NCBI GenBank assembly: GCA_047495785.1 | Contig: JBLDXI010000057.1 | Location: forward strand, 1 to 64,000 | Length of the DNA stretch: 64,000 nucleotides | DNA from: Lepidodermella squamata | Lineage: Eukaryota; Animalia; Gastrotricha | Reading direction: 5' to 3' | Made by a program: the position numbers and the translations under genes | Part shown: piece by piece, positions 1 to 25,114 of the stretch | Numbering within the stretch: position 1 is the first letter of the stretch | How the letters are laid out: each line of letters starts with the position of its first letter | Notes under the pieces: model-generated | Told to the model about the DNA's origin: nothing | Databases searched by the model: none | The model's input: only the letters and a program-made list of their open reading frames with translations

Positions 1-241
1 ACACATCTCGTGAGAGTATGCAAACGAGATCAAAACCTTGGCCTCATGAATAGAGTTCCTACGACTCCACTCTTAGCTTTCCTACAAAAGCCATCTGTGC
101 GTGTAGGGGCCTACATTTTTTTCCTTCTAATAACCGTTTGGCTTATAGAAATTTCAAACTATTTATTCAAAACTAAGCTCCCCCCTTTTGGCAACAGCGC
201 AATCCTTACTTTAGAAAAGATAGATAAGGATAACATAACAA

Positions 242-1462
242 ATGCTTAGCATCCAGGAGGACTTCTTTATTTATTTACCCTCGAATGCCTCATATTCTCA
301 ACATCCGGCGAATACTCCGTCGGATTATCAAGTTGCTCTCCCTGTCCCAATTTGCGTACCCGATTGCCGTGCTTATGAAGTAGCCCTACTTGAGGCTACA
401 ATTCCTGTTAGGTGGAGTAGCATTGATCGTCATACAGTCTATGTGCTTGATTGTAACTGGCTGAAATCTTTTAAAAACGACATTATTGCTAATTATTTAA
501 CAAATCCTGGCTCTTTGCCACATCGGATGAAAAGTTTCAACAATCCATGGGAAACTGGCTTTATTAACAAAGTAAATTTCGGAGGTGAATATTTTGCGAA
601 TATAACCAAACTAATCGATCACTTTAATGAAAAAATATCCATCTCAAGTAGTAATGGCTCTATTTTTGCTCATTATGATTCAGTCAACAAAAAAACTAAA
701 ATTACCTGTAAATGGCCATATTCTATGTTTATACCTTCAGATTCTGCTGGCCTCTTAGGTTTTGTGTCTCCAATAGAACAGAATACACCGTCTGGAGTTT
801 TCATTTTTCCCAAGGCCCCAAAAAATGACGAGCCAGAATTTAATGAAGTTTCCACTTTTGATATAAAGTCAACGTATGCCTTGGCATATGCGTGGAATAT
901 GAGCCACCAAATTCGTGAAAATCCACACATTTTATTCAACTCAGTTGGGATTGTTAGGCTTTCTAGCAGACCAAAACTTAAGGAGGATGCAAATAATGAG
1001 ACAGCGGCGGTAGAAAATCAAGAAGGCGTAAATTCAGCACAGCACTTTGATTTTTCTGAGCAAACAGTAATCACCAAAGATAATGATTTACCGCCTGCCT
1101 TTATTTATGCATGCTATGAAGAAAGTGCTACAGCTCAATACAACATTCAGTTGAATTATGGCAATAACTCACTGTTCATTTACTGCTCAGTTGCAGCGGA
1201 TGTTTTTGTTGGAGATTGCCAAGCTAGCCTCCTTCGAATGATAACCTATTCTACGATGGCTTCTGCTACGGCAAATTCAGACTTGTCATCACATTTTACA
1301 GTGATTTATAACTCGGGCCTATATTTACCTTTAAAAGCCAATTTTATAGATTCAATTCAAGTTCAAATCCGCCGCGATAACGGGGCATTGATCGATTTTG
1401 TGGATGGTAGCAAAGTTGTATTGCTACTTCATATTCGCCGAAAAACCGGAGCCTTATATTAA
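242..1462 (+). CDS. Polinton minor capsid protein (penton), with enlarged central region
   Basis: N-term FFIYLPSNAS..HPANTPSDY..LP..I...YEVALLE and C-term LFIYCSV...VGD....LLRMI...YLPL....IDSIQVQIRRDNG.LIDF...KVVLLLHIRR match the Polinton penton pattern. Confidence 0.9.
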   Translation: MLSIQEDFFIYLPSNASYSQHPANTPSDYQVALPVPICVPDCRAYEVALLEATIPVRWSSIDRHTVYVLDCNWLKSFKNDIIANYLTNPGSLPHRMKSFNNPWETGFINKVNFGGEYFANITKLIDHFNEKISISSSNGSIFAHYDSVNKKTKITCKWPYSMFIPSDSAGLLGFVSPIEQNTPSGVFIFPKAPKNDEPEFNEVSTFDIKSTYALAYAWNMSHQIRENPHILFNSVGIVRLSSRPKLKEDANNETAAVENQEGVNSAQHFDFSEQTVITKDNDLPPAFIYACYEESATAQYNIQLNYGNNSLFIYCSVAADVFVGDCQASLLRMITYSTMASATANSDLSSHFTVIYNSGLYLPLKANFIDSIQVQIRRDNGALIDFVDGSKVVLLLHIRRKTGALY

Positions 1463-1500
1463 TATAAGTGGCTGAGTTCTAATTATTAATATTACCGAAG

Positions 1501-2043
1501 ATGCCCCTAGCTTATTCTAACCAAAACGTTGACAAGTACCAGCAGTTTTTTCTCCGCCAACACTCCTCCCCGCTGATAGCAGGCTATGGAGCTGGAGCGG
1601 GTGCTAACCTGGACCATTTCCGTGGGGCAACAATTCAATTTCCATATCATTATAGGGGTCAGGGAATAGGAAATATATTAGGTGCCTTTTTCAGAAATTT
1701 CTTCCCAGTAATTGCTCCGTCTATTTTTCAACAAGCATTATCTACTGGCCAAAAAATATTAGGTGATATGCAACAACCTGAGGGCGCTAGACCTAGTTTT
1801 ACCGAATCCCTTAAGCGTCATGGCACTTCAGGCGCCTTAAACATGGCTAAGGATATTGCTGAAACGGCTTTGAAGCAACATCAAGGCGGTGGAGGTGGCC
1901 GTAAAAGGCGCCGTCGTCGTGGCCCTAGTAAAACTAGTAGTGTGACTGCAAAACGTAGGCGCCGTGCTTCTACTACAAAAAGAAAGGCTTATAAAAGGAA
2001 AAGACGCGCAACAACTAAATCAGTGCTATTTGAAGCGTCTTGA
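1501..2043 (+). CDS. Polinton virion core / membrane-active precursor protein with Arg/Lys-rich DNA-binding tail
   Basis: YRGQG-IGNILGAFFRNFFP amphipathic helix after a GxG protease-type site; QGGGGG followed by poly-Arg/Lys tail; typical small Polinton ORF between penton and hexon. Confidence 0.8.
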   Translation: MPLAYSNQNVDKYQQFFLRQHSSPLIAGYGAGAGANLDHFRGATIQFPYHYRGQGIGNILGAFFRNFFPVIAPSIFQQALSTGQKILGDMQQPEGARPSFTESLKRHGTSGALNMAKDIAETALKQHQGGGGGRKRRRRRGPSKTSSVTAKRRRRASTTKRKAYKRKRRATTKSVLFEAS

Positions 2044-2076
2044 GCCCATTGCTGCGTTTGATTCTTCAAATTTGTA

Positions 2077-3567
2077 ATGGAAGGCTTTGGAGATAATTTT
2101 GTTCACCCAGCCTCAGCCTCTTCAATAGTATTATCTTCAGATTTAGATTTATTTACTGTACCGCCTTCACAGCTTGCTGAAGAAAACCAAATAAGTATAG
2201 ATGTTTACCCAATTGCCCCTCTTAATAGTTCACCGAACCTGATTGAGTTTCAAATCGGCCCGTACAATGATTATTTGTGTCTGTCACGCATGCAACTGAT
2301 GCTCAAGTGGAAAGTAGTTAGAACCCCTTCTGAAGCTCGGAAGAAAAATGCTGGCGAAGCTGACGATGCATACAACGAGTATAAGGCTAGTCTTTCGGCT
2401 ACAAATTTACAAAAAGCCCCGCTTTGTTTAGCCCACCACACAATGTTCAAAACATGCGAGATTTCACTAAATGGGCAACTTTTAAGTGAACAAAATTCAT
2501 TATACGCTTATCGGGCCTATATTTCAACGCTTTTGTCTCATAATACTGATGCAAAAAACACGATATTACAGACACAATTTTGGTATCCTGATACAGCTAA
2601 AAAACTGGATAATTTTGACAATTCAAACGAGGGATTTAAAAAACGGTTGGAAATTGTTCAGGGCGGGAAATCTGTGTGCACCCTGGGACGCCTGTTTGCA
2701 GATCCTATGCTGTGTAATAGGCTACTTCTACCTAATGTTGAAGTCCGCATCAAGCTCTATAGGGCATCTAACAATTTTGCTTTGGTTGGGCCGAGCACAG
2801 CTGATCCTCACTCAATCGTCATTGAATCTGCAAAAATTATTGCCCGGGCTGTTGTTGTGTCGCCGGACATAGTGATTGCTCATACGCGTGCGCTGGAAAA
2901 AACTAACGCCAAATATCCTATAATGAGAGTTCGAACAAGGCTTTTTCACATACCAAGTAGTGTTTTGAGTTACAGTGTAAGTTTGCTCATCGCGCGTTTC
3001 TAAGTCAATTTTTAAAACTCTAATGGTTTAACAGATACCACAATGTATTAATGGTAAGCTTCCAAGGCGTATGTTTTTCTGTTTTTTTGAAGATTCCGCC
3101 CTGAATGGAACGGCGGGTAAAAATCCATTGAATGCATTACACAGCCAGCTATCCCGAATATCGATTTATTTGGGCAATGAACTACATCACTCAACAGCTC
3201 CCTTGGAAATGGATTTTGCAAATGGAGATGTCACCAGAGTCTATTTGGAGCTTCTCAATGCTATCAACCCAGATAACCCTTTCAAGGCATCTACGTTAAC
3301 TATGGATCAGTTTATTAATGGCTTCACAATTTTTGGTTTCGATTTATCGCGCAACTCCTCGTTGCAAAATTACTCAGTTATACGCACAGGTACCTGCAGA
3401 GTAGAGTTGAGTTTTGCTGTTCAAACAACAATTGTTACTCAGCTGTTAGTATTAACTGAAACTGATTCAGTTTTTGAGGTATCATCTTTTTTCATAAAAT
3501 TAAAATTGCCTTAAAATTCAAATTTTTTAAGATCACACGAACGCGTGACGTAATTGTTGATTCTTAA
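2077..3567 (+). CDS. Major capsid protein (double jelly-roll hexon/PY); exons 2077-2976, 3035-3478, 3532-3567
   Basis: SDLDLFTVPPSQ, IEFQI..YLCLS and YAYRAYISTLL motifs. Removing GT-AG introns 2977-3034 and 3479-3531 gives ...SYS/IPQCINGKLPRRMFF...KNPLN and a ...VFE/ITRTRDVIVDS* C-terminus typical of the family. Confidence 0.92.
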
Positions 3568-3577
3568 GCAGTTTTTC

Positions 3578-4141
3578 ATGTACAACAATGAATTGGAAGA
3601 TTTCATCCGGATTGATCCAGTACTAAAAAAGTTTGACATTTTTGTTGTAGCCGCTGATCAGCTACCACAGCAGCTTCCTATTGTGAAAAATAATCCACAA
3701 TTGATTATCTGTAACACAGGAAATGTATACAATTCTACAGGAAAGCACTGGGTCACACTGTTTGTTCACAGCGCACAGCATCCTGATGAGCCCTGTGAGT
3801 TTTTCGATAGCCTTAACCTTTCCCCTTCCTATCATAACCTCTATATCGACAACTTTTTGAAAGCGAATAGCCAAACAGAAGTGCCGTACATTCATTGCAA
3901 TAGGTCTTACCAGCATGTTTTTTCACAAATCTGCGGCTTATGGGCTCTATATTACAGCATGCTTCGAGCGCGAGGTAAAGACATGCACCAAATTTTGAGG
4001 CATTTTGATCAGCTTGGATCAAAGAACAATTTGCTTATAAAAGACTGTGTACTTTATCATAAATTTAATACATTATATTCCCACTATGGTCTATCTATGA
4101 GACCACTTGAAAGAATAAAACCCTGTAACGTTAGATTATAA
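3578..4141 (+). CDS. Adenain-like (C5) virion maturation cysteine protease
   Basis: AADQLP, ICNTG...GKHWVTLF (His), EFFDS (Asp), YQ...SQICGLW (Gln, Cys). First ATG at 3578. Confidence 0.93.
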   Translation: MYNNELEDFIRIDPVLKKFDIFVVAADQLPQQLPIVKNNPQLIICNTGNVYNSTGKHWVTLFVHSAQHPDEPCEFFDSLNLSPSYHNLYIDNFLKANSQTEVPYIHCNRSYQHVFSQICGLWALYYSMLRARGKDMHQILRHFDQLGSKNNLLIKDCVLYHKFNTLYSHYGLSMRPLERIKPCNVRL

Positions 4142-4144
4142 AGG

Positions 4145-4988
4145 ATGAGTGATTTGCGCTGCTGCCCTGGCAACATAAATGAAGCTTTGCCTTTTGTTCA
4201 CCCTAGCACAATTCTCATTGTTGGGCCGTAAGTGACGATGGAAATAAAAGTCAATATATTTTAGTGTAATTTACTCATCTTCAGGTCGGGGAGCGGTAAA
4301 ACAAGTCTGGTGCTTCAAATCCTACAGGATGCATTCAGTTTTGAACTTCCTTTTGAGAGAATTGTCTATTTTTATTCTACTTTCCAACCCATTTACAATG
4401 ACATAGCCGATGCTGCATTGCAAGTTCACAAAATTAAAGTTGAATTCGTAAATTTAGCAGACACAAAAAACAGCAGTAGCGATAGCTTCAGCTTAAAAAA
4501 TTATATCAACGACAATAACGAGACGCAGCCCCGCTGTTGCCTAGTATTTGATGACGTGTATCGCCTATTAACTGAAGACGAAACACTGGTACAGCTTTTT
4601 TTAGGAGGGCGGCACTTGAATACGACAACCATTCTCCTTCAACAAGTTTTGTTTACTCGAGCAAAAAATAGCAGGGAAATTCTGGTTTGCCTCAGAAAAT
4701 TATTGTTTTTTCTTCTATGTATTTTCTATTCTATAGCAAAATGCAAACTATTTATTCTATTTTCGCTGCATTTCCGACTCTGCAAGCTTTAGATCATATG
4801 CACAACGGCGTTCCCCAATGGGCTGGCGAGGCCTTCTTGAAGCGTTGAACCAAGCAACTGCTGAATCATCTCACACGCCACTGCTACTGGATAATTGTGC
4901 AACTACTCCGGATAATCTCCGCATTCGTTCGAGCAATGGCTTCGGTAGTAAACCTGGTTACGCTTACATTTTAGTCTCAAAGAAATGA
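4145..4988 (+). CDS. FtsK/A32-like DNA packaging ATPase; exons 4145-4227, 4285-4684, 4737-4988
   Basis: Splicing restores Walker A HPSTILIVGP/SGSGKT. Also Walker B LVFDD, GGRHLNTTTILLQQ and C-term QNANYLFYFR...LLLD...TPDNLRIRS. Confidence 0.92.
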
Positions 4989-5039
4989 TGATATGTACTA
5001 TTATAAAAGGATTCATTGCCGCCCAATTTTCGTCGTTAA

Positions 5040-5453
5040 ATGAATAAAGTTATTACCTCAGCAACGTCACCATCGTTCAGTCTTGATAAAAAACGGCGGC
5101 TTTTTCTTGCATTGAAATGGTTATTGCATGCTCACCCCGGTCAGCGTGCTGATATTTTAGCAACTAGCTCTGTTAGCCTTATACGATTTCTTAGCCGTTG
5201 CGCCTTGTATTGGCTTCGCAGCACTAGTACTGTTCTGGCCCCTGATTTGGCTAAATTGAAACAAAAAGGTGTCAATTTGGTCGAGCACAACCGGCAAGTT
5301 TTTATTCGACACTGCCTTAATAGCAACAAGAACAATAGGCGAAATAAGGCTTCGAAAGCTTCCTTTTTTGCAGTTTTACCCACTGTATTGAAATCCTTTG
5401 CACCCAGGCTAAAGTTTGATTATTCAGAACTCAAGAGGCTTCTTCGAATCTAA
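5040..5453 (+). CDS. Conserved small basic Polinton protein (probable virion core protein)
   Basis: LKWLLHAHPGQRADILATSSVSLIRFLSRCALYWL resembles the recurrent small Polinton ORF after the ATPase; basic composition. Confidence 0.65.
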   Translation: MNKVITSATSPSFSLDKKRRLFLALKWLLHAHPGQRADILATSSVSLIRFLSRCALYWLRSTSTVLAPDLAKLKQKGVNLVEHNRQVFIRHCLNSNKNNRRNKASKASFFAVLPTVLKSFAPRLKFDYSELKRLLRI

Positions 5454-5456
5454 ACT

Positions 5457-6608
5457 ATGCAGCGAAACTATGCACAGCGCATGACTATTGTTCCACTTGC
5501 GACACCTGGGCCAACTCCAGCACAACAACAACAACAACAACCAAACGCGAGCGACTTGATTGCTGCTAAAACATTGCTGAGCAATCCTCTGCTTTTCAAA
5601 CTAGTGCAGCTATTACAGTCTTTAGACCGGGATGTGATAAACAACGCTAGTAGTAGTGATAATTCAGCCGATTTAGTGCGAAAACGTAACGAACTCATGC
5701 ATGAGATTATGAATTTGAAGAAGCTGGTAGTTTTACAAGGCAGTAGCCAGCCGCCAGCCGCTATTCCAATGTCGCCTGCACCAGCAGATCGAGCAGAATC
5801 GAGGCCGCGCTCTCCTCCTCCTCCTCCTCCTCCTCCTCCTCCTCCTCCTCCGCTGCCGCCGCCGCCGCTTCCTTCTGCTTCTTCTCCTCCTCCTCCTCCT
5901 CCTCCAAAAAAACAGCAGCAACAACAACTTGCGCGCCAACAACCTACTAAATTAACATCTAGTAATTTTGGTCAAGCGGCCGGGCCTAGCTATAACAACT
6001 ATAACAGAGATTCGGGTATTGGCGGCTTTCAGCAGCAGTTTTCACCTAATACAACGCCACGACCTTCAACTGATAATAGCAGCAATTATGAATTTGATGA
6101 TCTTCAAATGGATTTTCTATTCGCTGCCCCGCAAACATCATCGACTTCTAGCGCTGCAGCCACGACCGTCCTCAGCCACGATGATGTTGTTGTTGATCGG
6201 CCTAATGATGAGCAGCTGCCTACGAGAGGAGGGACCCCCCGCGCGCGCACCCCCCAGGCCCCTCGAGACAGCAACACAACAGCAGGGTCGTCTTCGTTTA
6301 GCGGCGATGAGGACAGCAGCGGCAGCAATAGTGAAGAGCTGCAAGATGGTGCTGATAATGATGATAATCAAGCAGAAAGACAAGAAGAAGCCGCTGCCGC
6401 TGAACCGATGGAAATTGAGCTAGCTGGAGCAGCAACTGCAGCGGCAACGCCACGGAAGGGTCAAAAGCGCGGTAGAAAGCCACGTTCTATGACTGATCAA
6501 ACACAAATATCACCACCTGGAAAACTTTTCCGAAGAACGTCACAGCGTAAGATAAATAAAATCAACAAGTTTCAAGCTGGCACAGGGTTTTGGAGTTTAT
6601 TCATGTAA
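5457..6608 (+). CDS. Proline-rich low-complexity Polinton protein
   Basis: N-term YAQRMTIVP...LQSLDRDV resembles a common Polinton ORF start; poly-Pro, acidic tract, basic NLS-like PRKGQKRGRK and terminal QAGTG-FW. Confidence 0.7.
   Translation: MQRNYAQRMTIVPLATPGPTPAQQQQQQPNASDLIAAKTLLSNPLLFKLVQLLQSLDRDVINNASSSDNSADLVRKRNELMHEIMNLKKLVVLQGSSQPPAAIPMSPAPADRAESRPRSPPPPPPPPPPPPPLPPPPLPSASSPPPPPPPKKQQQQQLARQQPTKLTSSNFGQAAGPSYNNYNRDSGIGGFQQQFSPNTTPRPSTDNSSNYEFDDLQMDFLFAAPQTSSTSSAAATTVLSHDDVVVDRPNDEQLPTRGGTPRARTPQAPRDSNTTAGSSSFSGDEDSSGSNSEELQDGADNDDNQAERQEEAAAAEPMEIELAGAATAAATPRKGQKRGRKPRSMTDQTQISPPGKLFRRTSQRKINKINKFQAGTGFWSLFM
5812..5906 (+). repeat. (CCT)n/(CCG)n coding microsatellite encoding polyproline
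   Basis: Direct runs of CCT/CCG in frame with the 5457-6608 ORF. Confidence 0.9.
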
Positions 6609-6615
6609 TAATCGA

Positions 6616-9600
6616 TCATTGATCAGCGCTATATCCATGTGGATAAGTTAGAAAGGAAGCATCGCCGGGGCGTAGCCAACGTTTATCATAGGTTAAACGA
6701 ATCTTTTTTGTTATATGAACACAATGAATTTCCGATAACGGAGTATGCACTTTTTTAAACTGAGTCTGATCCAATTCAGCGATGACGCTGTTTTTGTTGT
6801 TATCACCCCGGCCCCCGCTTCCGCTGGTTTCGTTATCGTGGAGACTTTGTATTACATGCTTGATGAACAAGAAAAAATCGAGAAGACTGCGTGAATGAAA
6901 ACTTTGACGTATTCCCTGCGCGTGACGTAAATAATAAAAAACAGAGGGCGTAACAACAAGTAGCAATTACCTTTAACATTAGCTTGGCTTTGCCGTCAGC
7001 AAAAAGTAGGGCATATGCCTTACAGCCCAGTACAACCATTGCAATGATGCGTTGCCCTGTATCAAGCTGATCCGCCAAGCCGCCAAGAACGGGTGTGAAC
7101 TCAATTTTAGTAATTCCAGGCCCTTGAAGGCAAAAAATTGAATCCGTGTCTAAAACAAAAGACAAAAAACGTAGAGATGTTGGTAGCATAAGCGGCGCTA
7201 TTCTCTAACCGCTGTAGATAGCACTTTTTGGGCCGACTCGGTACAGCTCACGAGCCAGTTTCACACGAGCATTAGCTGTTACGAAGGCCGCTGTTATAAC
7301 TGAGGTGGATCCATTTGGAACGTCGGCATCTTTGGTTGGCCGTGTTACAATTCGCAAGCGAGAGACATCATCAGAGTTGATGAGTAAGCCTAGTGGTTGA
7401 ATATCCACAATTTCCAAAGCTGGATTATTTAGCATTTGCTGAAGCAGAAACGGGGATTTGATATAATCTGTTCTCTCTAGATTAGAATTCATAGCAAATC
7501 GACCAAAAAAGCTGTTCAAAACTAATTTGGCGATCGCGCGTAACCCAGGGTTCTTTTTATCCAACTTGGTGCTATCAATCGTTATACCAATGCGTTCCCA
7601 TTGCTCCAAATACTGTGCTTTTTGTTCACTAGTAGCACAGTTTGGCGGCCAGCCGGAGGATTCGGCCTTCAAAATGGTGAATCTTTTAATGAAATCTCTG
7701 AAAATTGTATTGCTCTTCTTGAACTCCCATATCTAAAAAAAATAACTTGATAGAAGCCATGCATGAGTTGGCTAAACAAAATTATTAACCTCGTAGACTT
7801 CCAGCAATCTGTAGCCATGAACATCTGTAGCGTACTTCAGTTCCACAGAGCAATACGAACCAATCCAGGACCTTTCATAATCAGAATGGGTGCATTCACG
7901 GCTTGAAACGCACAAGTTTGGATTTGCAGTCGACGAACAAGCATAGCAACATGAGAACACGAGCTTGTTTTGTTTACTACGAAAGCAGAGTACAGGTAGC
8001 CAGATGTTTTTCGGCGCTAATACCTAGCAAAATAATGTGGTGATGATGAAAGCAGGGAGACGATATGTAGATGCGAAGAGCTTACGCGTGCTTGTACGAC
8101 ACCAAAAAAAGATTCCTTTGAATAAATCTCCTGCAGTTTCTCGTTGTTTAATCTGAGATCCAAGGTGGATACTTTAGGTGGTCCTATTGCATAGTAGCCA
8201 TCCATCATACAGCTTGGATATAACGAGTTGAAGTCGGCGGAAATTATAGAATAATCGGGCGATGGAAATAAGAAGTCCTTGGTTTGCATCCCGCTTTCCT
8301 TACAAATTTGAGCAATCTTTTCCAAATTTTGGTCGCCTGAAGTTGAGTGTGATTCGGCAATCATAGCCATTAAACGAAAAGCTTCGACCCGCCCTAAAAA
8401 GTAGGCATGATGTTTTAATCCCGCGAAGATTAAATAGGGAAAACCTCCAGTTACCTCCAAAGAAAAACGAACGGCTCTCCATTACATTAGCTATTGTGAG
8501 ATTATCATAAATCTCCTGTGCTCTCGGGTGTTGTTTGAAACTAGCTCTAATTTCATGCTCCCAAAAGCTTTGAAGAATGTAACCATTCGAGCGAAACAAC
8601 TCTTCACGTTCCAAGGTTTGCTTGTAAACTACGCCGTTTGGTTGTCCAGATAGAAAATTTAGTTGTGAGGCCTCAAAGCATTGCAAGCAGCCATGGACAG
8701 CACAACCATGAACCTCGACAATCAGATCGGGTTCACTCGGAATTTTATCACGACGTGCAACAAAACCGTCGACGCGATAAGGATAACGGTGGCCAGGTAT
8801 AGATATTCGAACTTCTTGACGTGAGTTCTGAGCGTGTTTCATTGAACCATAAGTTTCAGGGTCAGACTCCATCAGAAATTGAAGAAAAGCTATCGAGAGC
8901 CTGCTGTGTGAATCCTTGCCACAGTAGCCAGCGGTCGGGATGACAGGTAATGTATCCTTCGTAAGAAACAGCTTGCGGAAGCATGTGCTTGTGAGAGAAG
9001 CTAGTGTGATGCATTCTTTAAAGGCATCAGTAGAACACAACTCCAGCATTAGCGCCCGAAATTTGATTGACGCCTTTTCCAAAACTAGACAATCCTGTAT
9101 GCAGTATTGCAGTAACGTGTGGCGAACACTGAACCGTTTCAGTTTGTTTTCGTTGTAGAAAGTTAGAAATTCTGCTCTTTCAGAAGGAGACATTTTGTCA
9201 GGCTCATAGTAGATCATATTAGGCAGCTGTGGGAATTCGAGATTGAAACTCGAAGGATTACAGCGAATTCAATCACAATAGCTCAAGAAGTTGATGATGT
9301 ACTTACTTTTCTTTAGTGCATAAGACGTAAGGAAAGAAGGTTTTCTTGTCTGGGATTCCCATTGTTGCTGGTAAATCCCTGTTGTTGAACAAATACCTGT
9401 AAGCAATGTAGTTTCTTAGTGTTTCTTAGGTAACCTACCTTAATCTGCATTGAAAAAAGAGATATGAATCCAAAAATCTGATTTTTTGTTGTTTGAAATC
9501 AATGCATAGTAGAGATCCCTGCCTTTGAAGAATCTTCACTTTAGAACATCGTGTTTGAATTTCTTTCAGTAATAATAAGGAATCGAAATTGGCTGAGTTG

Positions 9601-11471
9601 TGAGCCAAATAAATCGACTGGTAATTCATAGGTAGAAGCACCCAGTTTACGAAATCCTCCAGAGGACGACTTCCATAAAAAATATGAAGTCCACAACTAG
9701 AATGGCATCGCTGAATCCTCGCTTCGATGCAGTGAGGTATGCATACGACCTTTGCAACGATAAGGCATACTTGGAACTCATTGTTGTTATCAGCAAGTGA
9801 TGGCGAAAATGTCTCAGTGTCCCAAAAAACTAGGTTACGATAACGTTCCAGTTTATTCGCCGGTTTCAAGGGCTAAAAATACACCAACCACAGTATTTTG
9901 AAAAAAGCTGGACTGAAAAAAATGAGTATACCAAGGGAGTCATGAAGCAGAAGTGTGTGCCATTTTCTTCGTCGCTGGCTTTCAAAGGCTCCTGACAAAT
10001 GTGACAGCGCCGCCCGGGACACATAGCCTCATGCTTGAGAAAATGTACAAATTTCCTCCCGCATTTAAAGCATGGATTCTTTTTAGCACATTTGTGGTTT
10101 TGCTTACAACGTTCGCTATACAAAACTAAAAACATAAAAAGAGCTGAATAATAATGAAAAGGTTAAAAACATCAGACCTGCACGACATTGCGGACACCGC
10201 GTGTAGTTTTGTTGGTCTGTGTTGGAAATCACACGGCAAATGCTCCCTGATACACCTAAAATAATATTAATGATAAAAGAAGTGAAATTCAGGTTTTTCA
10301 TGTAAAAATTACGGCAGGAAGAGCATGCCAACTTGCATCTGTGCACAGCCGTACTCGTTTTCGTCTGAAAGCAAGTGGGGCATATTCGTTGTGCATTGCT
10401 AAGAGTGGCCTTCATAAAGTTGAGATTCGCAATGACATGAAAATGATGACTGTTGGGCTGAGAGACGTCGTTGCGATAAACCAGTAGAACAACAGGAAGC
10501 AACCCAAGGCTTACGCGATGATCAAATTCTGGGATTTCCCTAATAACATCCTGTGATTCGTACGAGTATACTACGAATCTGTAAGTATTATGTTCAGGAT
10601 CGATAGCCGAACACAGGGCTGAGTAATGATCATCTAGATTGTAGGCTGGAAGGTTGAGAGGTAAGCCCGCTTTCTGATATAGCGCCGTGGCTTCGCGAAA
10701 TTGACGATTGGTTCGCGTACTACGTATCGATTTGAAGGTTGCTTGAAGAGATGGATCCGTAGGATTCGCCTTCATGTGAGCCAAAGCCACTCCAGTGATG
10801 AGAGCTCTGCCCATGCAAAGATTGTTCGTTTCATTCTTGCGCGCTCCGATTCTAACGATCGATTTGGAGCGAAGAAAAAATTTGTCCAAAGTTTCGTTTA
10901 TAGCCCGCTCTGCCCGAGAACCACCAACAATTTGACCTAGATCTGCATTGGGGTTATCAATGACACAGAGACGAATTGTCCACCGACCAGCAAATGAGAG
11001 TTCTTCATTACTCTGTAATATTTTTCTCAGTTGATCAAAAATTGAAATTTCCAGCAACCGATCGCGTTTCATGAAGGGTAGGCTAAGAGGCATCTTCAAG
11101 TCGGGGTGGTACAGTGTTAGCCGGCAGAAGGAATTCACAGGTAAATCACGATGGATATTTACAACAATATCGAACAGGAAGTTGGCCAGAATATTGAAGC
11201 GGGTCTCCAAATCAATATTAGCCACCTGGTCGGCTGGTACGTTCTGCACAAATGATCGAATATTATCCAGTCGAGGTTCATCAGCGCCACCAGACAATTG
11301 AATCATCGGCCCAAGCGAACTAGAAGATTGGCCATATCTGTTGATGTAGGTTGAGGCAAAGTCGGATGTTACGGGCTGAATGAAGTACTCCACAGAAAAC
11401 ATTTTGAATTTTGTAGAATGAATCAGGCGATTACTTCGAATAAATGAGTATTGTAAACTATAGTTATCCAT
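6616..11471 (-). CDS. polB: Protein-primed family B DNA polymerase polyprotein (terminal protein, OTU-like protease, Zn fingers, exonuclease, VSR-like insert, polymerase); 11 exons
   Basis: Introns at 10256-10312, 10126-10177, 9873-9931, 9379-9438, 9249-9306, 8394-8454, 8024-8085, 7733-7789, 7150-7209, 6916-6970. The spliced frame is open and has FWDTET, AHNSANFD, FLDS, YCIQD, FFG/GRVEAF, DFNSLYP, KLVLNSFFGRF, YS/DTDS, K/GI, YDKR...TYPHGY. The first intron is in frame without a stop, so it is the least certain. Confidence 0.93.
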
Positions 11472-11588
11472 AACAATCTAAGATTAAAAATTTAAAATTG
11501 ATCGAATTTGGGAAGAGGTAAAACTTTATTACAAGGATAGATTGAAATAAATATTCAGTAAGTCATTTTAGTCAAGTTTTGTGTTAGC

Positions 11589-12110
11589 TTATTCATTGGC
11601 TGTTTCAATCATCGCTGCAACAGTTAACACCCCAGTTGCAAGGTCTTGAAACTGAGCTGCATCAAGAGAGACTCCTTGTCTTGAGGGTTGTTTATTTCCT
11701 AAAAAGTTAAATCATAAAAAGATTGCTATTACTGTAAATTTGAAGTAAATACCTTTAGCATCCAGATAAAACCTGCGTATATCTATAAGAATCGGTGAAA
11801 ATGATGGCACAAAGACACAGACTTCAATTTTGCATTCATGCATCGAAAATTTAAAGCCTGTGTTGTGAGATAGCAGGGCAAGTTGAGCCTGAGCAACCCA
11901 AGCATCATTCGGCGGTCGAAAATAAGGAACGAACTGGCTAAGAAATTCGTCTTGTCTAAAGGCGAGTTTTTTAGGCTTATCGTTCTTATCTTTGCGATCA
12001 GTCATTATGTAGATGAGATTAGAATCCTGAGGATGCTGTTGAATGACCAAGTTACTAGACATGTGATGATTGACTGTCTGGTTAGCAGATTCTACTATCG
12101 CCTCAGCCAT
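11589..12110 (-). CDS. PC4-like ssDNA-binding protein; intron 11699-11752
   Basis: Spliced product IDIRRFYLDAK/GNKQPSRQGVSLDAAQFQDL matches the PC4/Sub1 signature IDIRxxY...PxxxGISL. Confidence 0.8.
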
Positions 12111-12152
12111 GATTATTGAAAATTAAATCTAATGAAATAAGAATGTAAAACT

Positions 12153-12518
12153 TTAAGGGATGGGTTCTTTATATTGGCATAACTTTTCATGCCCAAAAAT
12201 GAGGTCATAAGTTAGAGTAATGGGACAGCCTTTATCAGAATATTGGCATTTGTAAATCAAATTCGAGATAATGTTCGATAAAATTACAGGGGGTTTAACG
12301 AAATCTTTCCCTGTTAATGATTCGCGGCAAAGTGGACAGCAACATACTGTTCGAGCTGAATTTTGAAAAATAGCGAGAACACATTTAGTACAAAATAAAT
12401 GGCCACAGGGGCGCGTTTGAATAGGATTAAGTAGGATAGATAAACAAATTGGACATTGCAAAGATTCAGCGTCTAAAATCTGGCTGTTCGAGAGCACAAG
12501 TCTTGTTGGATCCATCAA
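12153..12518 (-). CDS. C3HC4 RING finger plus TRAF/SIAH-type zinc finger protein (putative E3 ubiquitin ligase)
   Basis: CPIC...CGHLFCTKC...CPLC RING followed by CQYSDKGC...HEKLC. Confidence 0.88.
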   Translation of the reverse strand: MMDPTRLVLSNSQILDAESLQCPICLSILLNPIQTRPCGHLFCTKCVLAIFQNSARTVCCCPLCRESLTGKDFVKPPVILSNIISNLIYKCQYSDKGCPITLTYDLIFGHEKLCQYKEPIP

Positions 12519-12525
12519 TGAGGAT

Positions 12526-13290
12526 TCAAGTCTGAGAGATTACAGGCGTGATAAGAGAGGCAACATACTGAGAAGCTTGCTTTAGAACCTCAGAGGCATT
12601 CAAATTATCAGTGTCGATAACAAGCACGGGACATGGTAGGGATTTGTTTGTAGTCTCAACAGTACACATTTTTTCATGAAACTCATGTACGAGGCGTAAA
12701 TAATCCAGTGATAATAGCATTTCAGAACCCCGAGCTCTAGCTACGGCTCTTTGACAAGCTATTTGGGGAGAGGAGCGCAAGTAAATAATAGCTTCAGTTT
12801 TTACAAAATTCGGCTCGAAATTATCATACAAATTCATGAGAGCGTGATATTCGATAGAATTTATGCGCTTGGATGCATACGCACATGGGATAAAGACGTT
12901 TTTAGAACAGAAGGGCGTTCGATCATGCAGAACGATAGTATGCGCCCCGTAGATTTCAGGTTTGTGGTTAGGGGCTGAATAAAGGCCGCACATATCACTC
13001 GTGGCTACAATTTGAAAGTTGAACGCATTTTTCATCTGATAGTAATCTTTCAAAATGTTAGTTTTATCGTCATCAGTAAAGGACTCCCAACGATGAACAG
13101 GCTCGCAAATTGGCCACGCGGTATATCCCTGAAGTTTACGGTTGAGTGAAGGTAGATTAGTGAGACCCTCGATTAAGGTTGATTTCCCGCTAAAACAAGA
13201 GACTTTAAATAGAATTCTATTCGGTGGAGTATATGAGACTTACGCCCCAATGTTGCCGACTATGCCGAAATGGTAGACTTTAGGATGCAT
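12526..13290 (-). CDS. Deoxynucleoside kinase (dNK/TK2 family); intron 13190-13243
   Basis: Spliced P-loop GIVGNIGA/GKST, EPVHRWE, AFNFQ, DRTPF and IIYLRSSPQIACQRAVARARGSE lid. Confidence 0.88.
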
Positions 13291-13724
13291 CCAGCTTGCT
13301 TCAAGAAATATGCTAAGTGTATTCTTGAAGCATCTCTCTTAAATAGTCTGAGTGATATTTCCATAAAAGGAAAAAACAGGGAGATGTTTTGTTTGAATTG
13401 TTTAAGGTAATTACACCGTAAAGGGTAAAAAATCCTAATTGCTTTTTATTTTGATAAGTAAAAAATCGCATTGTTTAATTAGGGAGGATGTATAAGATTT
13501 ATTGACATGATGTTTTCTTATTGAATTACCGACAGCAATTAAGGAGGATGTATACAATACCAAGAATCTTTGATGAAAAGCATTAAAGCCAGCACTGAGG
13601 GGTCAACAGAGCTAAAGGCCCTAATGCATTTTTAAGGAAGATTGAATTACAAAAACAATATGCCTGAAAGGAGGTAGCCGCTCACATAAAAATCGAACCT
13701 CAGTAACAATATAAATTATAAAAT

Positions 13725-14228
13725 ATGAAGCTGAAGGTAGAGCTAACAAGTAACAAAGCTAAAGAACCGACAAAGCATACTAAAGGCTCTGTGGGTTGGG
13801 ACATCTATTCAGCAGAAGAGACGACACTGCAACCTGGAACCAGGGGACTGATTCAAACTGATATTAAAATCTGTTTACCACGAGGATATTATGGACAACT
13901 ATTCAGTCGATCAGGAATGAGCATCAACCATGGAATCGATACGGTCGCTGGAGTAATAGGTAAGAAGCAAATAATAATGAAAATTACTAATGAATATCTG
14001 TATTTTTCATGAATTAAAGACGCCGACTACACCGGAAAAATCGTAGTCTGCCTTGCAAACAACAGCAAAACACCTTACAAGATTAAAATAGGCGACCGTA
14101 TTACCCAGTTGGTGTGTTTAAAATATGGTCGCTTAGAATCTGCAGTAACGGTAACGGGGCCATTGAAAAACGCTCTAGCAGCAAATTCGACCCGTGGCGA
14201 TAACGGATTCGGTTCATCTGGACGTTAA
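13725..14228 (+). CDS. dut: Trimeric dUTPase; intron 13960-14019
   Basis: GSVGWDI, SRSG, spliced AGVI/DADYTG, GDRITQLV and RGDNGFGSSG (motifs I-V). Confidence 0.93.
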
Positions 14229-14494
14229 CCCCTCCAATCAAGCCGCTACAAATCTCTGAACAAATGAATAGAAAAACTGATAAGACTTATCCCAGCTATA
14301 AATTCATTGCTTGAAACGTTAAGACTAATAAAAAGTGTTTGTGTGAATGAAAAAGGGCTCTATTGCAGCTGCACTAAAGAAGCAGTGTAAAAATGATTAG
14401 TTTAGCTCATAACAGGTGAAAAAACGAAGATTTGTTTATTTTAGTTAGGTGAAATCATAGCAGTGGGTTAAAACGAAGGTATATTGACAAGAAG

Positions 14495-14681
14495 CGGCTA
14501 TAGTACAAATCGCCGTACTGCTATTACTCATCCCCAAATTGCGTATATTTATACCAAACGGGTATAGTAAAAATCGCCGTACTGCCATTACTGATCGCAA
14601 ATTGCGTATATTTATACCAAACGGCTATAGTAAAAATCGCCGTACTGCTATTACTGATCCAAAGTTCCCATCCTTACTACT
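14495..14681. repeat. Right terminal region: ~2.6 tandem copies of a 63-64 bp unit followed by the ACTACT end
   Basis: Unit CGG(C/G)TATAGTA(C/A)AAATCGCCGTACTGC(T/C)ATTACT...AAATTGCGTATATTTATACCAAA starts at 14495, 14559 and 14622. Confidence 0.85.
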
Positions 14682-15020
14682 CCAGGCGAGAAATCTTGCA
14701 ATTTTTCAATTGCATTTTAGATATTATAGGTTAATAACGTGAATACAGAATTCAGGTATTAACAATTAAATATCACAGTTTGAGTACATTCTCAATTTAT
14801 TTTCAATTTATAATTCAACCTGCCCTTTAAATTTGCATAGGCTAATGTTCTCTCTCGGCGAATTATCGCAAAGACTGGAACATATTTTTTTGCATTTTCA
14901 ATGGACTATTTTAAGGTTACTCTCGCGCCTGACGGCGCATCACGCAACGACACGCGATCACGTTGAAAATGTCGTTGAGATTTTCTAGAAAAAAATCATT
15001 TTCCAATTTCATTTTTCTCA

Positions 15021-18000
15021 ATGCGTCAGTTATTTATCGCCATTTCTATCGCATTTCTCAGCAGTGGGGCTGTTGTATCAGCTGGAAGCTGGGTTCGCTG
15101 CTTCTCGCAATTCGACAACACCTTTGTCGGCTGCTCTGATTCACCCTGCAAACGGCTTTCCGAGTTCCTAGTATCAAATAATTTTTTCTTAATTTATCTG
15201 AAATATTATAAATTTTTCCTTTGCAGTGGGGTCGAAATTTCACCACCTGGGATGATTGTCGAAAGACGGTAGATTTTTTCAGACATTTTTAAAGATAAAT
15301 TCAGAAATTCATCGAAATAGAGTGCCCGGATGTGCTATGACTATGACGCATTGACGCCAAAATGCCGCCCAGTCAGCGTTCCTTGCAATAGCAACGAAAT
15401 CGAGGTATCAAACTTGCTCAATTTGCTGTTTTTCTCAGAATTTTTTTGTTTTTTTTTTGGTGATAGATTTTCCGATACCAGGGCTCTGAGTTACTGCGCG
15501 GAAACCTGCTCGATTGCGAGGACGATATTCCCAATTTTAAGGTGACCTACCTTCAACTTGTTGAATAATTTCATTGTGCCGTTCTAGAATTGGAAGGCGA
15601 GACAATGCCTGCGTGATAACAAAATAGCTACATGCATTCCGATGAAACCTAACCCGTTGGAACCCAATAAAGCCCCGGCCCAGTGTCCCGAACCTTTGAA
15701 GGTCACGTTTTTCTTTACTTTGAGCACTCTGAATAATTGTGCCTATTTATTCAAGGGAGGAAAGGTTTACCAGAGCTGGCTGGTCTGCATCAATCGCCAA
15801 GGTGATCCAACTTTCCAATTTCGCTAATAAAATTTAGAAAATTTAAAACAGTTACCTACCAGAATTTTCGGCGTCGATACCTTGAGGATTATTATTAAAA
15901 TTTAAAAACTGCCAATCATTTTTTTTATTCATTTTTGGAATTTCTGAAAAAATTCAAAATTGCGGTGCTACTCAAATATTTTTTTTCTGGATAAAAATTG
16001 AATTTTTAATGGCCAAAGTAGATTTTTAGGTGACATTTAAATTCTTGAAACCTTTGGTGTTGTAGGTAGAAATAAATTCGTCTAACGCCGCCAAATAATT
16101 TTTGTGATTTTTTGTTTTGATTTCTGCCACAGTTCAAGTACCTGATAGGATGAAGCCGCAGGTCAGGTGTTTCGACCAGGCGACGAGGACGTTCATTGGC
16201 TGCCGCCTTCAATCCGATGGCTGCACGCCTGGTACGACCCCGGAGTACTCGCCAGGCCTACAAAGCCCCGTCGGCGTCTACAGATACCGCGATCTCTGCC
16301 TGTCGTGGGTGAGTTCACGACTTATTTTGACCACGATGAATTAGAGAAAGGCTTTGTTTGAATTTTTCTCTTCATTTAAATTTGAGAAATTTCATCGAAT
16401 TTCATTGAATTTGAATTTTCAGTTAATATGAAAAAAGTTTGCTAGGAATGGAAAGAATGAAATGAAAATATAGACAAATTATTTTCAAAAACTTGGATCG
16501 TAAATACTTCATCATTCATCACTTTTTTCAAGGTGCGAGAAGAGGACCGAAATCATACAAATTTCGAACGAATTTTTTGTCTATAAATCGGATTTATTTT
16601 CCGAATTTTAAAACGAATTTCACATTTTCTGACCTGGTCTGCCGAGTCCCGCCGCGGAAAATTTTAGGTTTTTGAAACATATTCAGGGATTGTATCATTC
16701 GAAAATAATTTTGTAGCTATTATAGGTTGGTTCAAGTTGGTATTATCGACAATTAATAAATTCTGAAGTCTTTTATTTTCTTTAGTTCGCAGCACTGTGC
16801 CCTACGCCAAGTGGAAACCGGTGTTATAGCCGCTGTCCTAACGGCTCTCAACCGGTTTGTTTATTTGACCTTCAATTTAAAGTGATCAACTCTTCCTTGG
16901 TTAACAGTTGAAAATCTACGATTCGTCTTCGAGCTTCGATACCAACTACAACGCTTGCTTGAATCAGCTGAACAATGGCCCGGTAACGTCTTTTTTCGAG
17001 ATTTTACTTGGAAATAACTGGTCTCATCCGCGTGATAGGCGAAGCTTTGCGTTGATACCAATACCCGTGAGCCTGCCCTTTGCACGAGCGTCGACTCTGA
17101 TTGCCCAGCCGGACAGGTGAGCTGAGAGCCCAGAATGCGATCAATCTCCTTTGTTGTTTAATGTACCCGTTTGGCCCTCAGCTACCATCAGGCTTCACGT
17201 TTCCGAATTTGGCGGCCTGTGCACCATGTGAGCTTAAATTTGAATTAACCTGATTCTTTTTATCGTTTTTCTTTACAATAGGGACGAACTTGGGCTGTTC
17301 GGCTGATAGAAAATTCGCCCCGCTGTACTTTGGCAAAACTTGGTCCGAAGCCGGGCAGGCGTGTGCGTCGCTGAACACTCGTCTCGCTCAAGTCGATAGT
17401 GCCACGGAGCAATCAGCCATCGCTCCTCTAGCGAGTGGGTGATTTTGTTTTAATTTTAATTTCAAATGATGGCGAAAAGCCACTAAGTATAAATCTGGCG
17501 GTTTTTAACACGGGATTTATTACTGAAAATTTAGAAAATTTCAGAAAATTCTTCCAATTCGTCGACAGGTTTTTAGTCGGTTGATCGGACGCTGGGAATT
17601 TTTTTAAATTATTTAACATTATTTTGGTCTGTTGAATTCTAGTAATTTTTTCCACGCTTGAGTGCCGAATTCGGATGATTGAGATTTTTTAAACTTTCTA
17701 AACTCATTGCGGACATCTTGAGATTGGCAGAGGAATAACGTTTTTCTACAATTAAGGTTGGGAAATGAGTATTAGGTCATAAAATCGCTCAACAACAAAT
17801 TCACAGTTATTCGACCGAATTGCTTTGGCAAAAGTTCCAAGCAGTATGACTTTCATGTGGTTTTAAGATCTGCCTTATTTTCAATTTTTTTTCAAGGAAT
17901 TATCACATATGTTTTAAAATAAAAATTGCAATTGTGCATTGTTCTAACTCCCAATATTCGCTCTTTTAAAAAGAATTCGAAAAGCACCTGCGCGAAAGTG

Positions 18001-20606: not shown

Positions 20607-21303
20607 AGCAATGTTTAATGAGAGCCATAGAGATCAGGTTAATCTGATCTCTATGATGAAAGCCTTCGATTGACCTCTATGCATTACCCCCGAATTCATC
20701 TTTATTATTTTGACTTTGAATAAAACATCATGGCAATCCCTTATCGTCGATATTTCTTGAATTTTCTGAAACAATCAACATTGAAAGATGATAAGCATAA
20801 TAATAAATAATCGAATGATCAAAAGATACGGACAACGGACACTATCGAAGGCCGTACATTGAAAAACGCAACGGTAAACGGTAAATCAAAGGGTCAGCTC
20901 CGAAATTTGCAAATGCTCAATGGTCTGCTTAAATTTTCCGAAAAATTATGTGGGTGAATTTCGGATCAGTTTCATACATTTCTTGCGATTTGTAAAGGTC
21001 TCTAAAGGCTTTGCTCCGACAAATGAATACGAAAATGATAATACGTCTCATAAAGTTTCGCACTATTTTTTCGCTCCTCAATAAGAGAGTTCGCCTAATA
21101 GCAGTTGAAATGATCAATTTAATGTGGATAAAGGATTAAGCCGCTGATTTTCTTTGGGGTTCTGTTTGTCTCATTCGATGAATCGAGTTTGCTTGCTTTT
21201 TTCAAATAGCCAGACGTATGATAACTGGGCACGTGCTCTAAATACGGCGTGTTAATTTTTTTTCATTTTAAAACTCGCATTTACTTATTTTACATTACTA
21301 GGC

Positions 21304-24300: not shown

Positions 24301-25114
24301 ATTGAATTGCTCTTGCCATTATTAAATTTATTAATTAAAACTTTAACTAAATCGATTCTAAAATGGGTGATTGAATGATTACATTTTTTGTTATTTTTTT
24401 ATCGACTCTTCAAGTTACCGCATCAAGAATGCGTTGCGGCTGACGGAAATGTGAACTGTGCCCTGGAGGCATTTCCATGTCCCACTGGATTGGTAAGTTT
24501 TAGAATACTATTTATTTTGTCGTATAATATCTTCCTTCTTTAGGTTCAACGGCGGGTTTTCAGCAGCAAACAACGTTGTGTTTCGCGTACTTTACCATGA
24601 AACAATAACAATTCACTTGAGACTTTCATTTTTCCTTGTTATCTAGCAACGGGATGTGCGTTGGATGGCAAGTATTACAAAATTAACCAGAACGGCATGA
24701 ACTTCACAACGGCCAAGACAGTGTGTAGCACGTACGGAGCTCTAGCTGCAATTAGAAACTCCGACGAACAGGCTGAAGTTTTCAAACTTATTGGTATGAC
24801 ATCAATTACACGCGACTTCTATCGATCGATTTAAATATTTTACTCACCAAGGCACCGCCTCTGCTGTCTTCGGTTGCAACGGCCTGTGGCTTGGCGCCTC
24901 GACGCCTTCGCTTCAAGACCAGCCTTTCAAATGGCTGGACAATAGCGTTTTGACCTACACTGACAAGTTGGTGTCCGATGGCTTGGGCTGTGATGGCAAT
25001 CCATTTGGCCCGCTTGCAATCCGCATTGCGAATAACAATAACGGAATGTGGGACGATGTTAATCCAGATGCTGCGTTAGAGGGCGCTATCTGCCAGTTGC
25101 CATGCAATACTTGA
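21304..25114 (+). CDS. Paralogous secreted Cys-repeat / C-type lectin protein (two CTLDs; exon model approximate)
   Basis: Signal peptide then WIRCFSQLDDSFVTC (paralog of WVRCFSQFDNTFVGC). CTLDs PYGCNGLWIGA...WDDVACNAVLDGAICE and FGCNGLWLGA...WDDV...GAICQLPCNT*. Confidence 0.78.

What the first reader, a model, noticed from the sequence alone, without database searches (positions are those of the whole stretch)
1..14681. Intact-looking Polinton/adintovirus whose genes carry 17 host-sized spliceosomal introns
Seen: the fragmented ORFs join into uninterrupted proteins after removing 52-62 nt GT-AG introns (polB 10, capsid 2, ATPase 2, PC4 1, dNK 1, dUTPase 1), with no residual stop or frameshift. 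Intron size matches the flanking host genes. Known: Polinton core genes are usually described as compact and largely intronless. Inference: this is a lineage of endogenous DNA virus that has become heavily intronised and depends on the host spliceosome, perhaps to look like self to RNA surveillance or nuclear export, or to regulate early/late expression. It would be misannotated as decayed by ORF-based searches.
Basis: partly seen in the sequence, partly recalled or inferred. Interest (0 to 1): 0.9.

Follow-up and report, generated by a model that had tools for sequence, protein, structure and literature searches.

The report
Intron-rich Polinton spliced by its host
A virus-like transposon (Polinton/Maverick), in what is likely a small invertebrate, has six genes cut by 17 short host-style introns; at least 14 are cut out in public sequence that is likely RNA-derived, and the element looks high-copy and near-identical, so it is likely an expressed element that intron-blind searches would score as dead.

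Summary
Confirmed. Exons carry no stops and align collinearly with intron-free relatives.

Contigs of two RNA-like runs from two studies lack 14 of the 17 introns (5 in both). The DNA-like run lacks none of these 14. The other three rest on homology.

In the DNA-like run the element lies about 21-fold deeper than the flanking host gene, is almost invariant, and shows two further right-end flanks.

Correction: 'intact' is not fully testable. The window opens at the inferred integrase 3' end, so the integrase, left repeat and target duplication are missing.

The introns share no sequence, so this is not a recent introner burst. Whether they serve the element is untested.

The animal Maverick papers I read call the core genes intronless. 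Intron-bearing viruses are known elsewhere (dinoflagellate Polintons, mirusviruses, punuivirus). This scan noted intron-rich Polintons in six earlier windows of other DNA; their listings mention no RNA test.

Verdict: a new variant of a known kind, with transcript support.

The parts
1..17 (.). Window start that seems not to belong to the element; resembles a long-read library barcode (recalled, untested)
   Evidence: An X1 contig diverges before place 18 (table 7)
18..49 (+). Probable last codons of the retroviral-type integrase gene (inferred)
   Evidence: Open to a stop at 47-49. The loose letters upstream in X1 read by eye like the chromodomain end of Polinton integrases (recalled). The gene order integrase-mCP-PW-MCP-protease matches PMC8097293 section 7
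242..1462 (+). Minor capsid (penton)-like gene, 406 aa, no intron needed
   Evidence: ORF. ESM Atlas feature hits score 0.97, including a cluster where 26% carry Sputnik V18/19; recognition was below threshold, so this is a lead
1501..2043 (+). PW/core-protein-like gene with basic tail, 180 aa
   Evidence: ORF; label from position and composition only; no Pfam hit
2077..3567 (+). Major capsid protein (double jelly-roll), 3 exons, 459 aa
   Evidence: the exon-1 model (pLDDT 83.5) matches iridovirus, poxvirus D13 and PBCV-1 capsid folds, best E 7e-7
2977..3034 (+). MCP intron 1, 58 nt, phase 0 (predicted)
   Evidence: 117 of 150 relatives span this site in one protein; not among the displayed joints
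3479..3531 (+). MCP intron 2, 53 nt
   Evidence: Skipped in an X2 contig
3578..4141 (+). Maturation cysteine protease-like gene, 187 aa
   Evidence: Weak Peptidase_C48 hit, E 0.034, below cut-off; His/Asp/Cys motifs seen by eye
4145..4988 (+). A32-like packaging ATPase, 3 exons, 244 aa
   Evidence: Pox_A32 E 3e-7; collinear with the intron-free ATPase of L004
4228..4284 (+). ATPase intron 1, 57 nt, inside Walker A (predicted)
   Evidence: not among the displayed joints
4685..4736 (+). ATPase intron 2, 52 nt (predicted)
   Evidence: not among the displayed joints
5040..5453 (+). Basic 137-aa ORF (PZ-like by recall only)
   Evidence: ORF; no Pfam hit
5457..6608 (+). Proline-rich, acidic 383-aa ORF, function unassigned
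   Evidence: ORF; no Pfam hit
6616..11471 (-). Protein-primed family B DNA polymerase, 11 exons, 1,424 aa; carries a VSR-like insert (by eye)
   Evidence: DNA_pol_B_2 hits on four pieces; aligns over residues 95-1424 with intron-free P0003, E 6e-112
10256..10312 (-). polB intron 1, 57 nt
   Evidence: Skipped in X2
10126..10177 (-). polB intron 2, 52 nt
   Evidence: Skipped in X2
9873..9931 (-). polB intron 3, 59 nt
   Evidence: Skipped in X2
9379..9438 (-). polB intron 4, 60 nt
   Evidence: Skipped in X2
9249..9306 (-). polB intron 5, 58 nt
   Evidence: Skipped in X2
8394..8454 (-). polB intron 6, 61 nt
   Evidence: Skipped in X2
8024..8085 (-). polB intron 7, 62 nt
   Evidence: Skipped in X2
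7733..7789 (-). polB intron 8, 57 nt
   Evidence: Skipped in X2 and X3
7150..7209 (-). polB intron 9, 60 nt, inside the catalytic Pol C motif
   Evidence: Skipped in X2 and X3; motif position from alignment
6916..6970 (-). polB intron 10, 55 nt
   Evidence: Skipped in X2 and X3
11589..12110 (-). PC4-like single-strand-DNA-binding gene, 2 exons (label by eye only)
   Evidence: no Pfam or PDB support from exon 1 alone
11699..11752 (-). PC4-like intron, 54 nt
   Evidence: Skipped in X2 and X3
12153..12515 (-). RING-finger (TRAF/Sina-like) gene, 120 aa, no intron
   Evidence: zf-C3HC4 E 4e-7; start codon
12526..13290 (-). Deoxynucleoside kinase, 2 exons, 236 aa
   Evidence: dNK E 1e-21
13190..13243 (-). 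dNK intron, 54 nt, inside the P-loop
   Evidence: Skipped in X2 and X3
13725..14228 (+). dUTPase, 2 exons, 147 aa
   Evidence: The two pieces match Pfam positions 2-70 and 69-129
13960..14019 (+). dUTPase intron, 60 nt
   Evidence: Skipped in X2
14493..14493 (+). Poly(A) attachment point, likely the end of the dUTPase transcript
   Evidence: 21 loose A behind this place in X2; no A-run in the DNA there
14495..14660 (.). Subterminal tandem repeat, 2.6 x 63 nt, probably within the right terminal inverted repeat
   Evidence: X1 depth in this bin is twice the interior
14676..14681 (+). Right terminus (ACT)2
   Evidence: Sequence; the commonest Maverick 3' end motif; other flanks follow 14681 and 14685 in X1

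Best explanation
This is an integrated Polinton (Maverick) whose polymerase, capsid, ATPase and nucleotide-metabolism genes are interrupted by 17 short GT-AG introns, 14 of which are removed in contigs that are likely RNA-derived, so the host spliceosome likely makes the working mRNAs of an element that was probably mobile recently. Shown: gene content, intron positions, stop-free exons, the 14 skips, a poly(A) end, about 21-fold depth over the host flank, and more than one flank. Inferred from family knowledge: host RNA polymerase II transcribes it in the nucleus, the protein-primed polymerase copies an excised linear DNA from its termini, and the integrase reinserts it. That cycle goes DNA to DNA with no reverse-transcribed mRNA step, so a gained intron is not purged. 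Inferred from the sequence: the introns were gained one by one over long residence in hosts with tiny introns. They share no sequence, fall in all three phases, and were held to about 52-62 nt by the host's splicing machinery. They are most likely tolerated passengers, with at most a secondary benefit for expression.
For: 14 exact skips in X2, 5 also in X3, none in X1. One 4.7-kb X2 contig's depth value marks all ten polB joints. Poly(A) loose end at 14493 and a cDNA-adapter-like loose end (adapter identity recalled). 95 of 106 X2 contigs are at least 99% alike and no X2 substitution is listed. Exons are stop-free and 16 of 17 introns are lethal if kept. No intron-sized gap at any polB, MCP or ATPase junction against intron-free relatives. 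Pairwise intron similarity is no higher than shuffles: mean 6.99 against 6.84 +/- 0.15, maximum 11 against 12. Phases 0/1/2 are 7/6/4, and 11 of 17 introns follow a G. X1 median depth is 2,053 against 89-98 in the host flank, doubled in the terminal bin; 168 of 218 contigs are at least 99% alike and one substitution is listed in the element.
Against: X2 is only guessed to be RNA and X3 has no kind on record. Contigs cannot show strand, level, or that one molecule carries all the joints. Three introns were not displayed as joints. The integrase, left repeat and target duplication lie outside the window. The tool warns that contig depth is not copy number, and only 10 X1 contigs were partly laid, fewer than about 20 integrated copies would predict. 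No relative close enough to date the introns or measure selection was found, so gradual gain is inferred from dissimilarity alone. The skew of introns toward replication genes (p=0.05, post hoc) sits less well with pure neutrality.
Confidence: 0.62

Rival explanations
1. A latent virus that still replicates: most of the 21-fold excess is free linear DNA or virions from one or a few proviruses, and the introns are selected. They would license host-like expression of the early replication genes while late structural genes stay intron-poor.
For: High, even depth with almost no variation. Only 10 partly laid X1 contigs and two alternative right-end flanks listed. Capsid transcripts are spliced too (MCP intron 2 in X2). 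13 introns in 6.2 kb against 4 in 6.0 kb. Precedent in punuivirus, where latency genes are intron-enriched (10.64898/2026.10.09.758095, passages).
Against: The loose-end table was cut (10 rows hidden) and a filter drops records. Amplified libraries or insertions into repeats could give the same picture. The skew is post hoc and driven by one gene, polB. The capsid and ATPase genes do carry introns. There are no virion or episome data.
Confidence: 0.22
2. A domesticated or trapped element: introns accumulated after fixation, as in endogenised giant viruses; the element is transcribed but no longer mobile, and the depth excess comes from host duplications or library bias.
For: Introns in endogenous nucleocytoviruses are regarded as a sign of decay (PMC12768974, passages). 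No open integrase or paired termini could be checked here.
Against: No stop or frameshift in any of the 12 genes present. Host flank depth is low while the element is high, and different flanks begin at or just after the terminal motif, as for independent insertions. Mutually unrelated introns imply long residence, yet the copies are near-identical.
Confidence: 0.11
3. The joined forms are DNA: an intron-free sister element or retro-copy in X2 and X3, and the segments are chance insertions in a decaying copy.
Against: All 14 skips are GT..AG in gene sense on both strands. Poly(A) and adapter-like ends are present. The longest records are 6.9 and 4.5 kb against 130 kb in X1. X1 shows none of the 14 joints. 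The sequence is otherwise at least 99% alike.
Confidence: 0.03

Closest known systems
Polintons/Mavericks of animals (vertebrate Mavericks, PMC8097293; nematode Mavericks, 10.1101/2022.07.12.499685 and 10.1101/2023.08.22.554363)
   Same: pPolB, A32-like ATPase, double jelly-roll MCP, minor capsid-like and protease-like genes; the order integrase-mCP-PW-MCP-protease; polB on the opposite strand, converging; (ACT)2 right end; 15-20 kb scale.
   Different: Intact vertebrate elements have 'conserved and intronless ORFs', and the C. plicata Maverick's core genes are called intronless with introns only in cargo. Here the core genes carry 14 introns and the accessory genes 3. The element also has dNK, dUTPase, RING and PC4-like genes, and its ATPase lies on the capsid strand.
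Adintoviruses / Eupolintoviridae (PMC8502044)
   Same: The same core gene set in an animal-like host.
   Different: A word search of that paper's main text found no spliceosomal intron or splicing. Free virions or episomes are not shown here.
Introner-bearing eupolintoviral proviruses of dinoflagellates (PMC12166617)
   Same: Polinton-type proviruses with intron-forming insertions.
   Different: There the insertions are repeated introner families, and only about 25% lie in coding regions. Here all 17 are in coding sequence, mutually unrelated, in stop-free genes, and 14 are seen removed.
Intron-rich mirusviruses (PMC12768974) and punuivirus (10.64898/2026.10.09.758095)
   Same: Functional nuclear DNA viruses with host-type spliceosomal introns. 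In punuivirus the introns are enriched in latency genes.
   Different: Those are large viruses of protists and algae from other groups. This is a small Polinton in an animal-like host, with ten introns in its polymerase alone.

Membership tests
Polinton/Maverick | Protein-primed family B DNA polymerase | tested here: met
   Pfam DNA_pol_B_2; Exo I-III, Pol A and Pol B motifs found, Pol C split by intron 9; E 6e-112 to P0003
Polinton/Maverick | Retroviral-like (rve) integrase | tested here: inconclusive
   Not in the window; only a probable last ten codons and a by-eye motif in loose letters
Polinton/Maverick | A32/FtsK-like packaging ATPase | tested here: met
   Pox_A32 E 3e-7; Walker A and B
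Polinton/Maverick | Double jelly-roll major capsid protein | tested here: met
Polinton/Maverick | Minor capsid protein | tested here: inconclusive
   Atlas feature hits of 0.97 to viral clusters, but recognition below threshold; position fits
Polinton/Maverick | Adenain/Ulp1-like cysteine protease | tested here: inconclusive
   Peptidase_C48 E 0.034, below cut-off; no PDB sequence hit; motifs and position fit
Polinton/Maverick | Terminal inverted repeats with (AGT)2//(ACT)2 ends | tested here: inconclusive
   Right end motif present; doubled terminal depth fits two repeats; left end outside the window
Polinton/Maverick | 6-bp target site duplication | not testable with these tools
   Left flank not in the window, and no genome is held
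Polinton/Maverick ('intact' as defined in PMC8097293) | Intronless core ORFs | tested here: not met
   14 introns in polB, MCP and ATPase. This is an operational filter rather than a family boundary
Adintovirus / Eupolintoviridae as a true virus | Free linear genome or virions | not testable with these tools
   Depth excess is suggestive only
Introner-invaded viral element | Introns belong to repeated, mutually similar families | tested here: not met
   Pairwise similarity among the 17 introns equals shuffles; junction repeats of 0-3 nt. Copies elsewhere in the host genome could not be searched
U2-type spliceosomal introns | GT..AG ends and precise removal from transcripts | tested here: met
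   17 of 17 are GT..AG; 14 of 17 are displayed as exact skips in RNA-like contigs

The most novel reading that the evidence does not exclude
A replication-active, latent animal DNA virus of the Polinton group that has remade its genome in the host's exon-intron style. Its early genes need host splicing to be expressed and to escape silencing of intron-free foreign RNA, and much of the 21-fold excess is free viral DNA. It would stand for a hidden class of active Polintons that ORF-based surveys have discarded as fossils.
Probability: 0.22. Interest if true: 0.88.

Novelty: new variant of a known kind. Interest (0 to 1): 0.72.

Why it matters
Surveys define intact Mavericks by intronless ORFs (PMC8097293) or by a pPolB ORF of at least 900 aa (10.1101/2023.08.22.554363). 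An element like this one is therefore filed as decayed or missed, and counts, host ranges and 'fossil' fractions may be biased.

It shows that a Polinton can keep ten introns in its polymerase, one inside the catalytic motif, and still be transcribed, spliced and apparently recently multiplied.

It gives a compact natural system for asking how mobile DNA gains introns and whether introns help foreign DNA pass as self. If the depth excess is free DNA, it is also a candidate for the open question of whether animal Polintons form virions.

Tried and rejected
Genome and copies: no genome is held, so other copies, the left end and host copies of the intron sequences could not be searched.

Runs: the run search listed no holder on record as RNA. 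X4 does not hold the element, apart from 18-25 nt chance matches. Depth by gene in X2 was not used to rank expression, as the tool advises.

Relatives with introns: none found. Viral contigs with single-exon queries confirmed nothing from 2 and 5 pattern hits. The capsid alignment was too diverse to search with. Among 150 capsid relatives, 33 stop short of the intron-1 site; their tails look like frameshift decay or cut ends and cannot be read as shared introns.

Gene parser: my ab initio parser recovered 8 of the 17 introns exactly but over-predicted badly, so it served only to suggest host candidates. Two of the six host test chains did not stay open to the end.

Host phylum: a search with the host ion-channel domain found nothing. 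'Nematode' is unproven; the host 3' splice sites are looser than the strict nematode consensus I recall.

PC4 label: not supported by Pfam or PDB from exon 1 alone. A PDB sequence search with the capsid profile gave nothing meaningful.

Introner origin: rejected for lack of similarity among the introns.

Literature: a search on intron-dependent default silencing returned nothing, so that idea rests on recall.

Earlier findings: look-ups by place and sequence were empty.
Full report
WHAT IS THERE. Positions 18-14681 hold twelve genes in two blocks. On the plus strand lie a minor-capsid-like gene, a basic PW-like gene, the major capsid gene, a protease-like gene, an A32-like ATPase and two unassigned ORFs. 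On the minus strand, converging on them, lie dNK, a RING gene, a PC4-like gene and pPolB. A dUTPase points outward to a 63-nt subterminal repeat and the end motif (ACT)2 at 14676-14681, which is the commonest 3' end of vertebrate Mavericks (PMC8097293, section 7). Pfam supports the ATPase, polB, RING, dNK and dUTPase. A model of capsid exon 1 (pLDDT 83.5) matches double jelly-roll capsids. The minor capsid and protease labels have only weak support, and the PC4, PW and PZ labels are by eye or from recall.

THE LEFT END IS MISSING. An X1 contig diverges before place 18, and places 18-49 end a reading frame. The loose upstream letters resemble, by eye and from recall, the chromodomain tail of Polinton integrases, and that is where the integrase lies in the published gene order. 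The first 16-17 bases resemble a library barcode (recalled, untested). The integrase, left repeat and target duplication therefore could not be checked.

THE 17 INTRONS. All are GT..AG, 52-62 nt and A+T-rich (0.70 against 0.575), in phases 0/1/2 = 7/6/4. Read exon by exon with X at the junctions, no gene has an internal stop (PC4 end corrected). Sixteen of 17 would truncate the protein if retained. The polymerase aligns over residues 95-1424 with the intron-free P0003 without an intron-sized gap at any of the ten junctions. The ATPase does the same with L004. Of 150 capsid relatives, 117 span the intron-1 site in one predicted protein, 112 of them with no gap in the query nearby; some database proteins may themselves be spliced models. 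Introns fall inside Walker A, the dNK P-loop and the Pol C motif.

SPLICING. Four runs were laid on the element. Fourteen skips match the predicted introns exactly: all ten in polB, capsid intron 2, PC4-like, dNK and dUTPase. All 14 are in X2 (study P2), 5 are also in X3 (study P3), and none is in X1. Seventeen further joints were not displayed, so three introns remain predicted. X2 is only guessed to be RNA and X3 has no kind on record. However, X2 shows a poly(A) loose end at 14493 where the DNA has no A-run and an end like a cDNA adapter (recalled), both runs have short longest records, and 95 of 106 X2 contigs are at least 99% alike. An intron-free DNA sister is therefore very unlikely. 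Contigs cannot give strand, level or whole-molecule structure.

COPIES. In X1 the median depth over 28 interior bins is 2,053, against 89-98 in the host flank (about 21-fold), and the terminal bin is twice the interior. Of 218 contigs, 168 are at least 99% alike, 45 are 95-99% and 5 are 90-95%; one substitution is listed inside the element. Other flanks follow 14681 and 14685. This fits a young multi-copy family. But only 10 X1 contigs were partly laid, fewer than about 20 integrations would give, which leaves room for free DNA. The tool warns that depth is not copy number, hides ten loose ends and drops some records.

HOST. The flank encodes C-type lectin-like proteins (weak hits), kinases, Cys-loop receptor-like proteins and cathepsins, which points to an animal. 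The phylum is not established. Thirty-four predicted host introns have a median of 55 nt, and 27 lie at 47-62 nt. The element's are similar overall (p=0.27) but slightly longer than the short class (p=0.005). These host introns are unverified, and two of the six chains were incomplete.

ORIGIN AND FUNCTION OF THE INTRONS. They resemble one another no more than shuffles do and have junction repeats of only 0-3 nt, so a recent introner burst is rejected. Gradual gain, retained because the Polinton cycle has no reverse-transcription step (family knowledge), is the simplest reading. Replication and nucleotide genes carry 13 introns in 6.2 kb against 4 in 6.0 kb for the plus-strand block (p=0.05, post hoc, driven by polB). 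I ran this test after seeing earlier notes of this scan that capsid genes were spared in other elements; here they are not spared. A role as a self mark or an early/late switch is possible but untested.

LITERATURE. I ran nine searches. In their listings and in the passages I read, I found no description of an animal Polinton with spliced core genes. PMC8097293 (passages and section 7) defines intact elements as intronless and sees no introns. 10.1101/2022.07.12.499685 (passages) calls the nematode Maverick core genes intronless, with introns in cargo. 10.1101/2023.08.22.554363 (passages, abstract, sections 9 and 11) filtered its cross-eukaryote search for pPolB ORFs of at least 900 aa; the longest open frame here is 453 aa. 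PMC8502044 (passages) does not mention splicing. Precedents that lower novelty are introners in dinoflagellate Polinton proviruses (PMC12166617, passages), intron-rich mirusviruses (PMC12768974, passages) and punuivirus (10.64898/2026.10.09.758095, passages). Passages of PMC11296320, PMC12220804, PMC11244446, 10.64898/2026.07.28.741278 and PMC5718144 added nothing on this point. I read no supplements. Repbase, Kapitonov and Jurka 2006 and subscription papers were not seen, and annotated introns could be recorded there.

EARLIER SCAN NOTES. Six notes describe intron-bearing Polintons in other DNA. They are unchecked and are not support, none is a look-alike of this sequence, and the few lines shown mention no RNA test. 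They suggest the phenomenon recurs.

VERDICT. The element works like a Polinton and is very likely a member, though the integrase and termini could not be fully tested. It is a new variant of a known kind. Its value lies in transcript support for splicing of core viral genes in a young, high-copy element. Interest 0.72.

Noticed in passing
window 11478-11589 and 12110-12153: Short A+T-rich gaps between the minus-strand genes end in acceptor-like AG just before the polB and PC4-like start codons. The roughly 110-nt PC4-polB gap holds an AATAAA. This resembles operon-style trans-splicing (recalled); untested.
   Followed up: partly
window 8456-9247 (polB exon 6): A Cys/His-rich insert resembling the VSR-like domain reported for some pPolB2 polymerases; the intron-free relatives P0003 and P0169 have a similar motif. 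Identified by eye only.
   Followed up: partly
window 1-17: Looks like a retained long-read library barcode at a contig start (recalled), i.e. an assembly artefact.
   Followed up: no
window 35301-38072 and 44425-47196: Two intron-free 923-codon host ORFs with a Cys-loop receptor domain behind a long unassigned N-terminal region (Pfam on the first), although neighbouring genes are intron-dense. No homologue found.
   Followed up: partly
window 15000-25100 and 40400-41600: Tandem family of cysteine-rich C-type lectin-like host genes with many 47-60 nt introns.
   Followed up: partly
window 48300-61500: Cluster of papain-family cathepsin genes; the one scanned at 49842 has two I29 inhibitor domains.
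   Followed up: no
window 27800-44000: Repeated blocks pairing a kinase gene preceded by coiled-coil-like repeat exons with a small membrane-protein ORF, three copies.
   Followed up: no
runs X1 and X2: X2 is labelled a different organism from X1 and X3 yet holds the element at 99% or more. It also covers the host flank thinly, so a label difference is as likely as horizontal transfer.
   Followed up: no
L001-L003, 9173-10297: A partial Polinton-type polB lies among ankyrin-repeat-like ORFs in 339-733 kb viral contigs.
   Followed up: no
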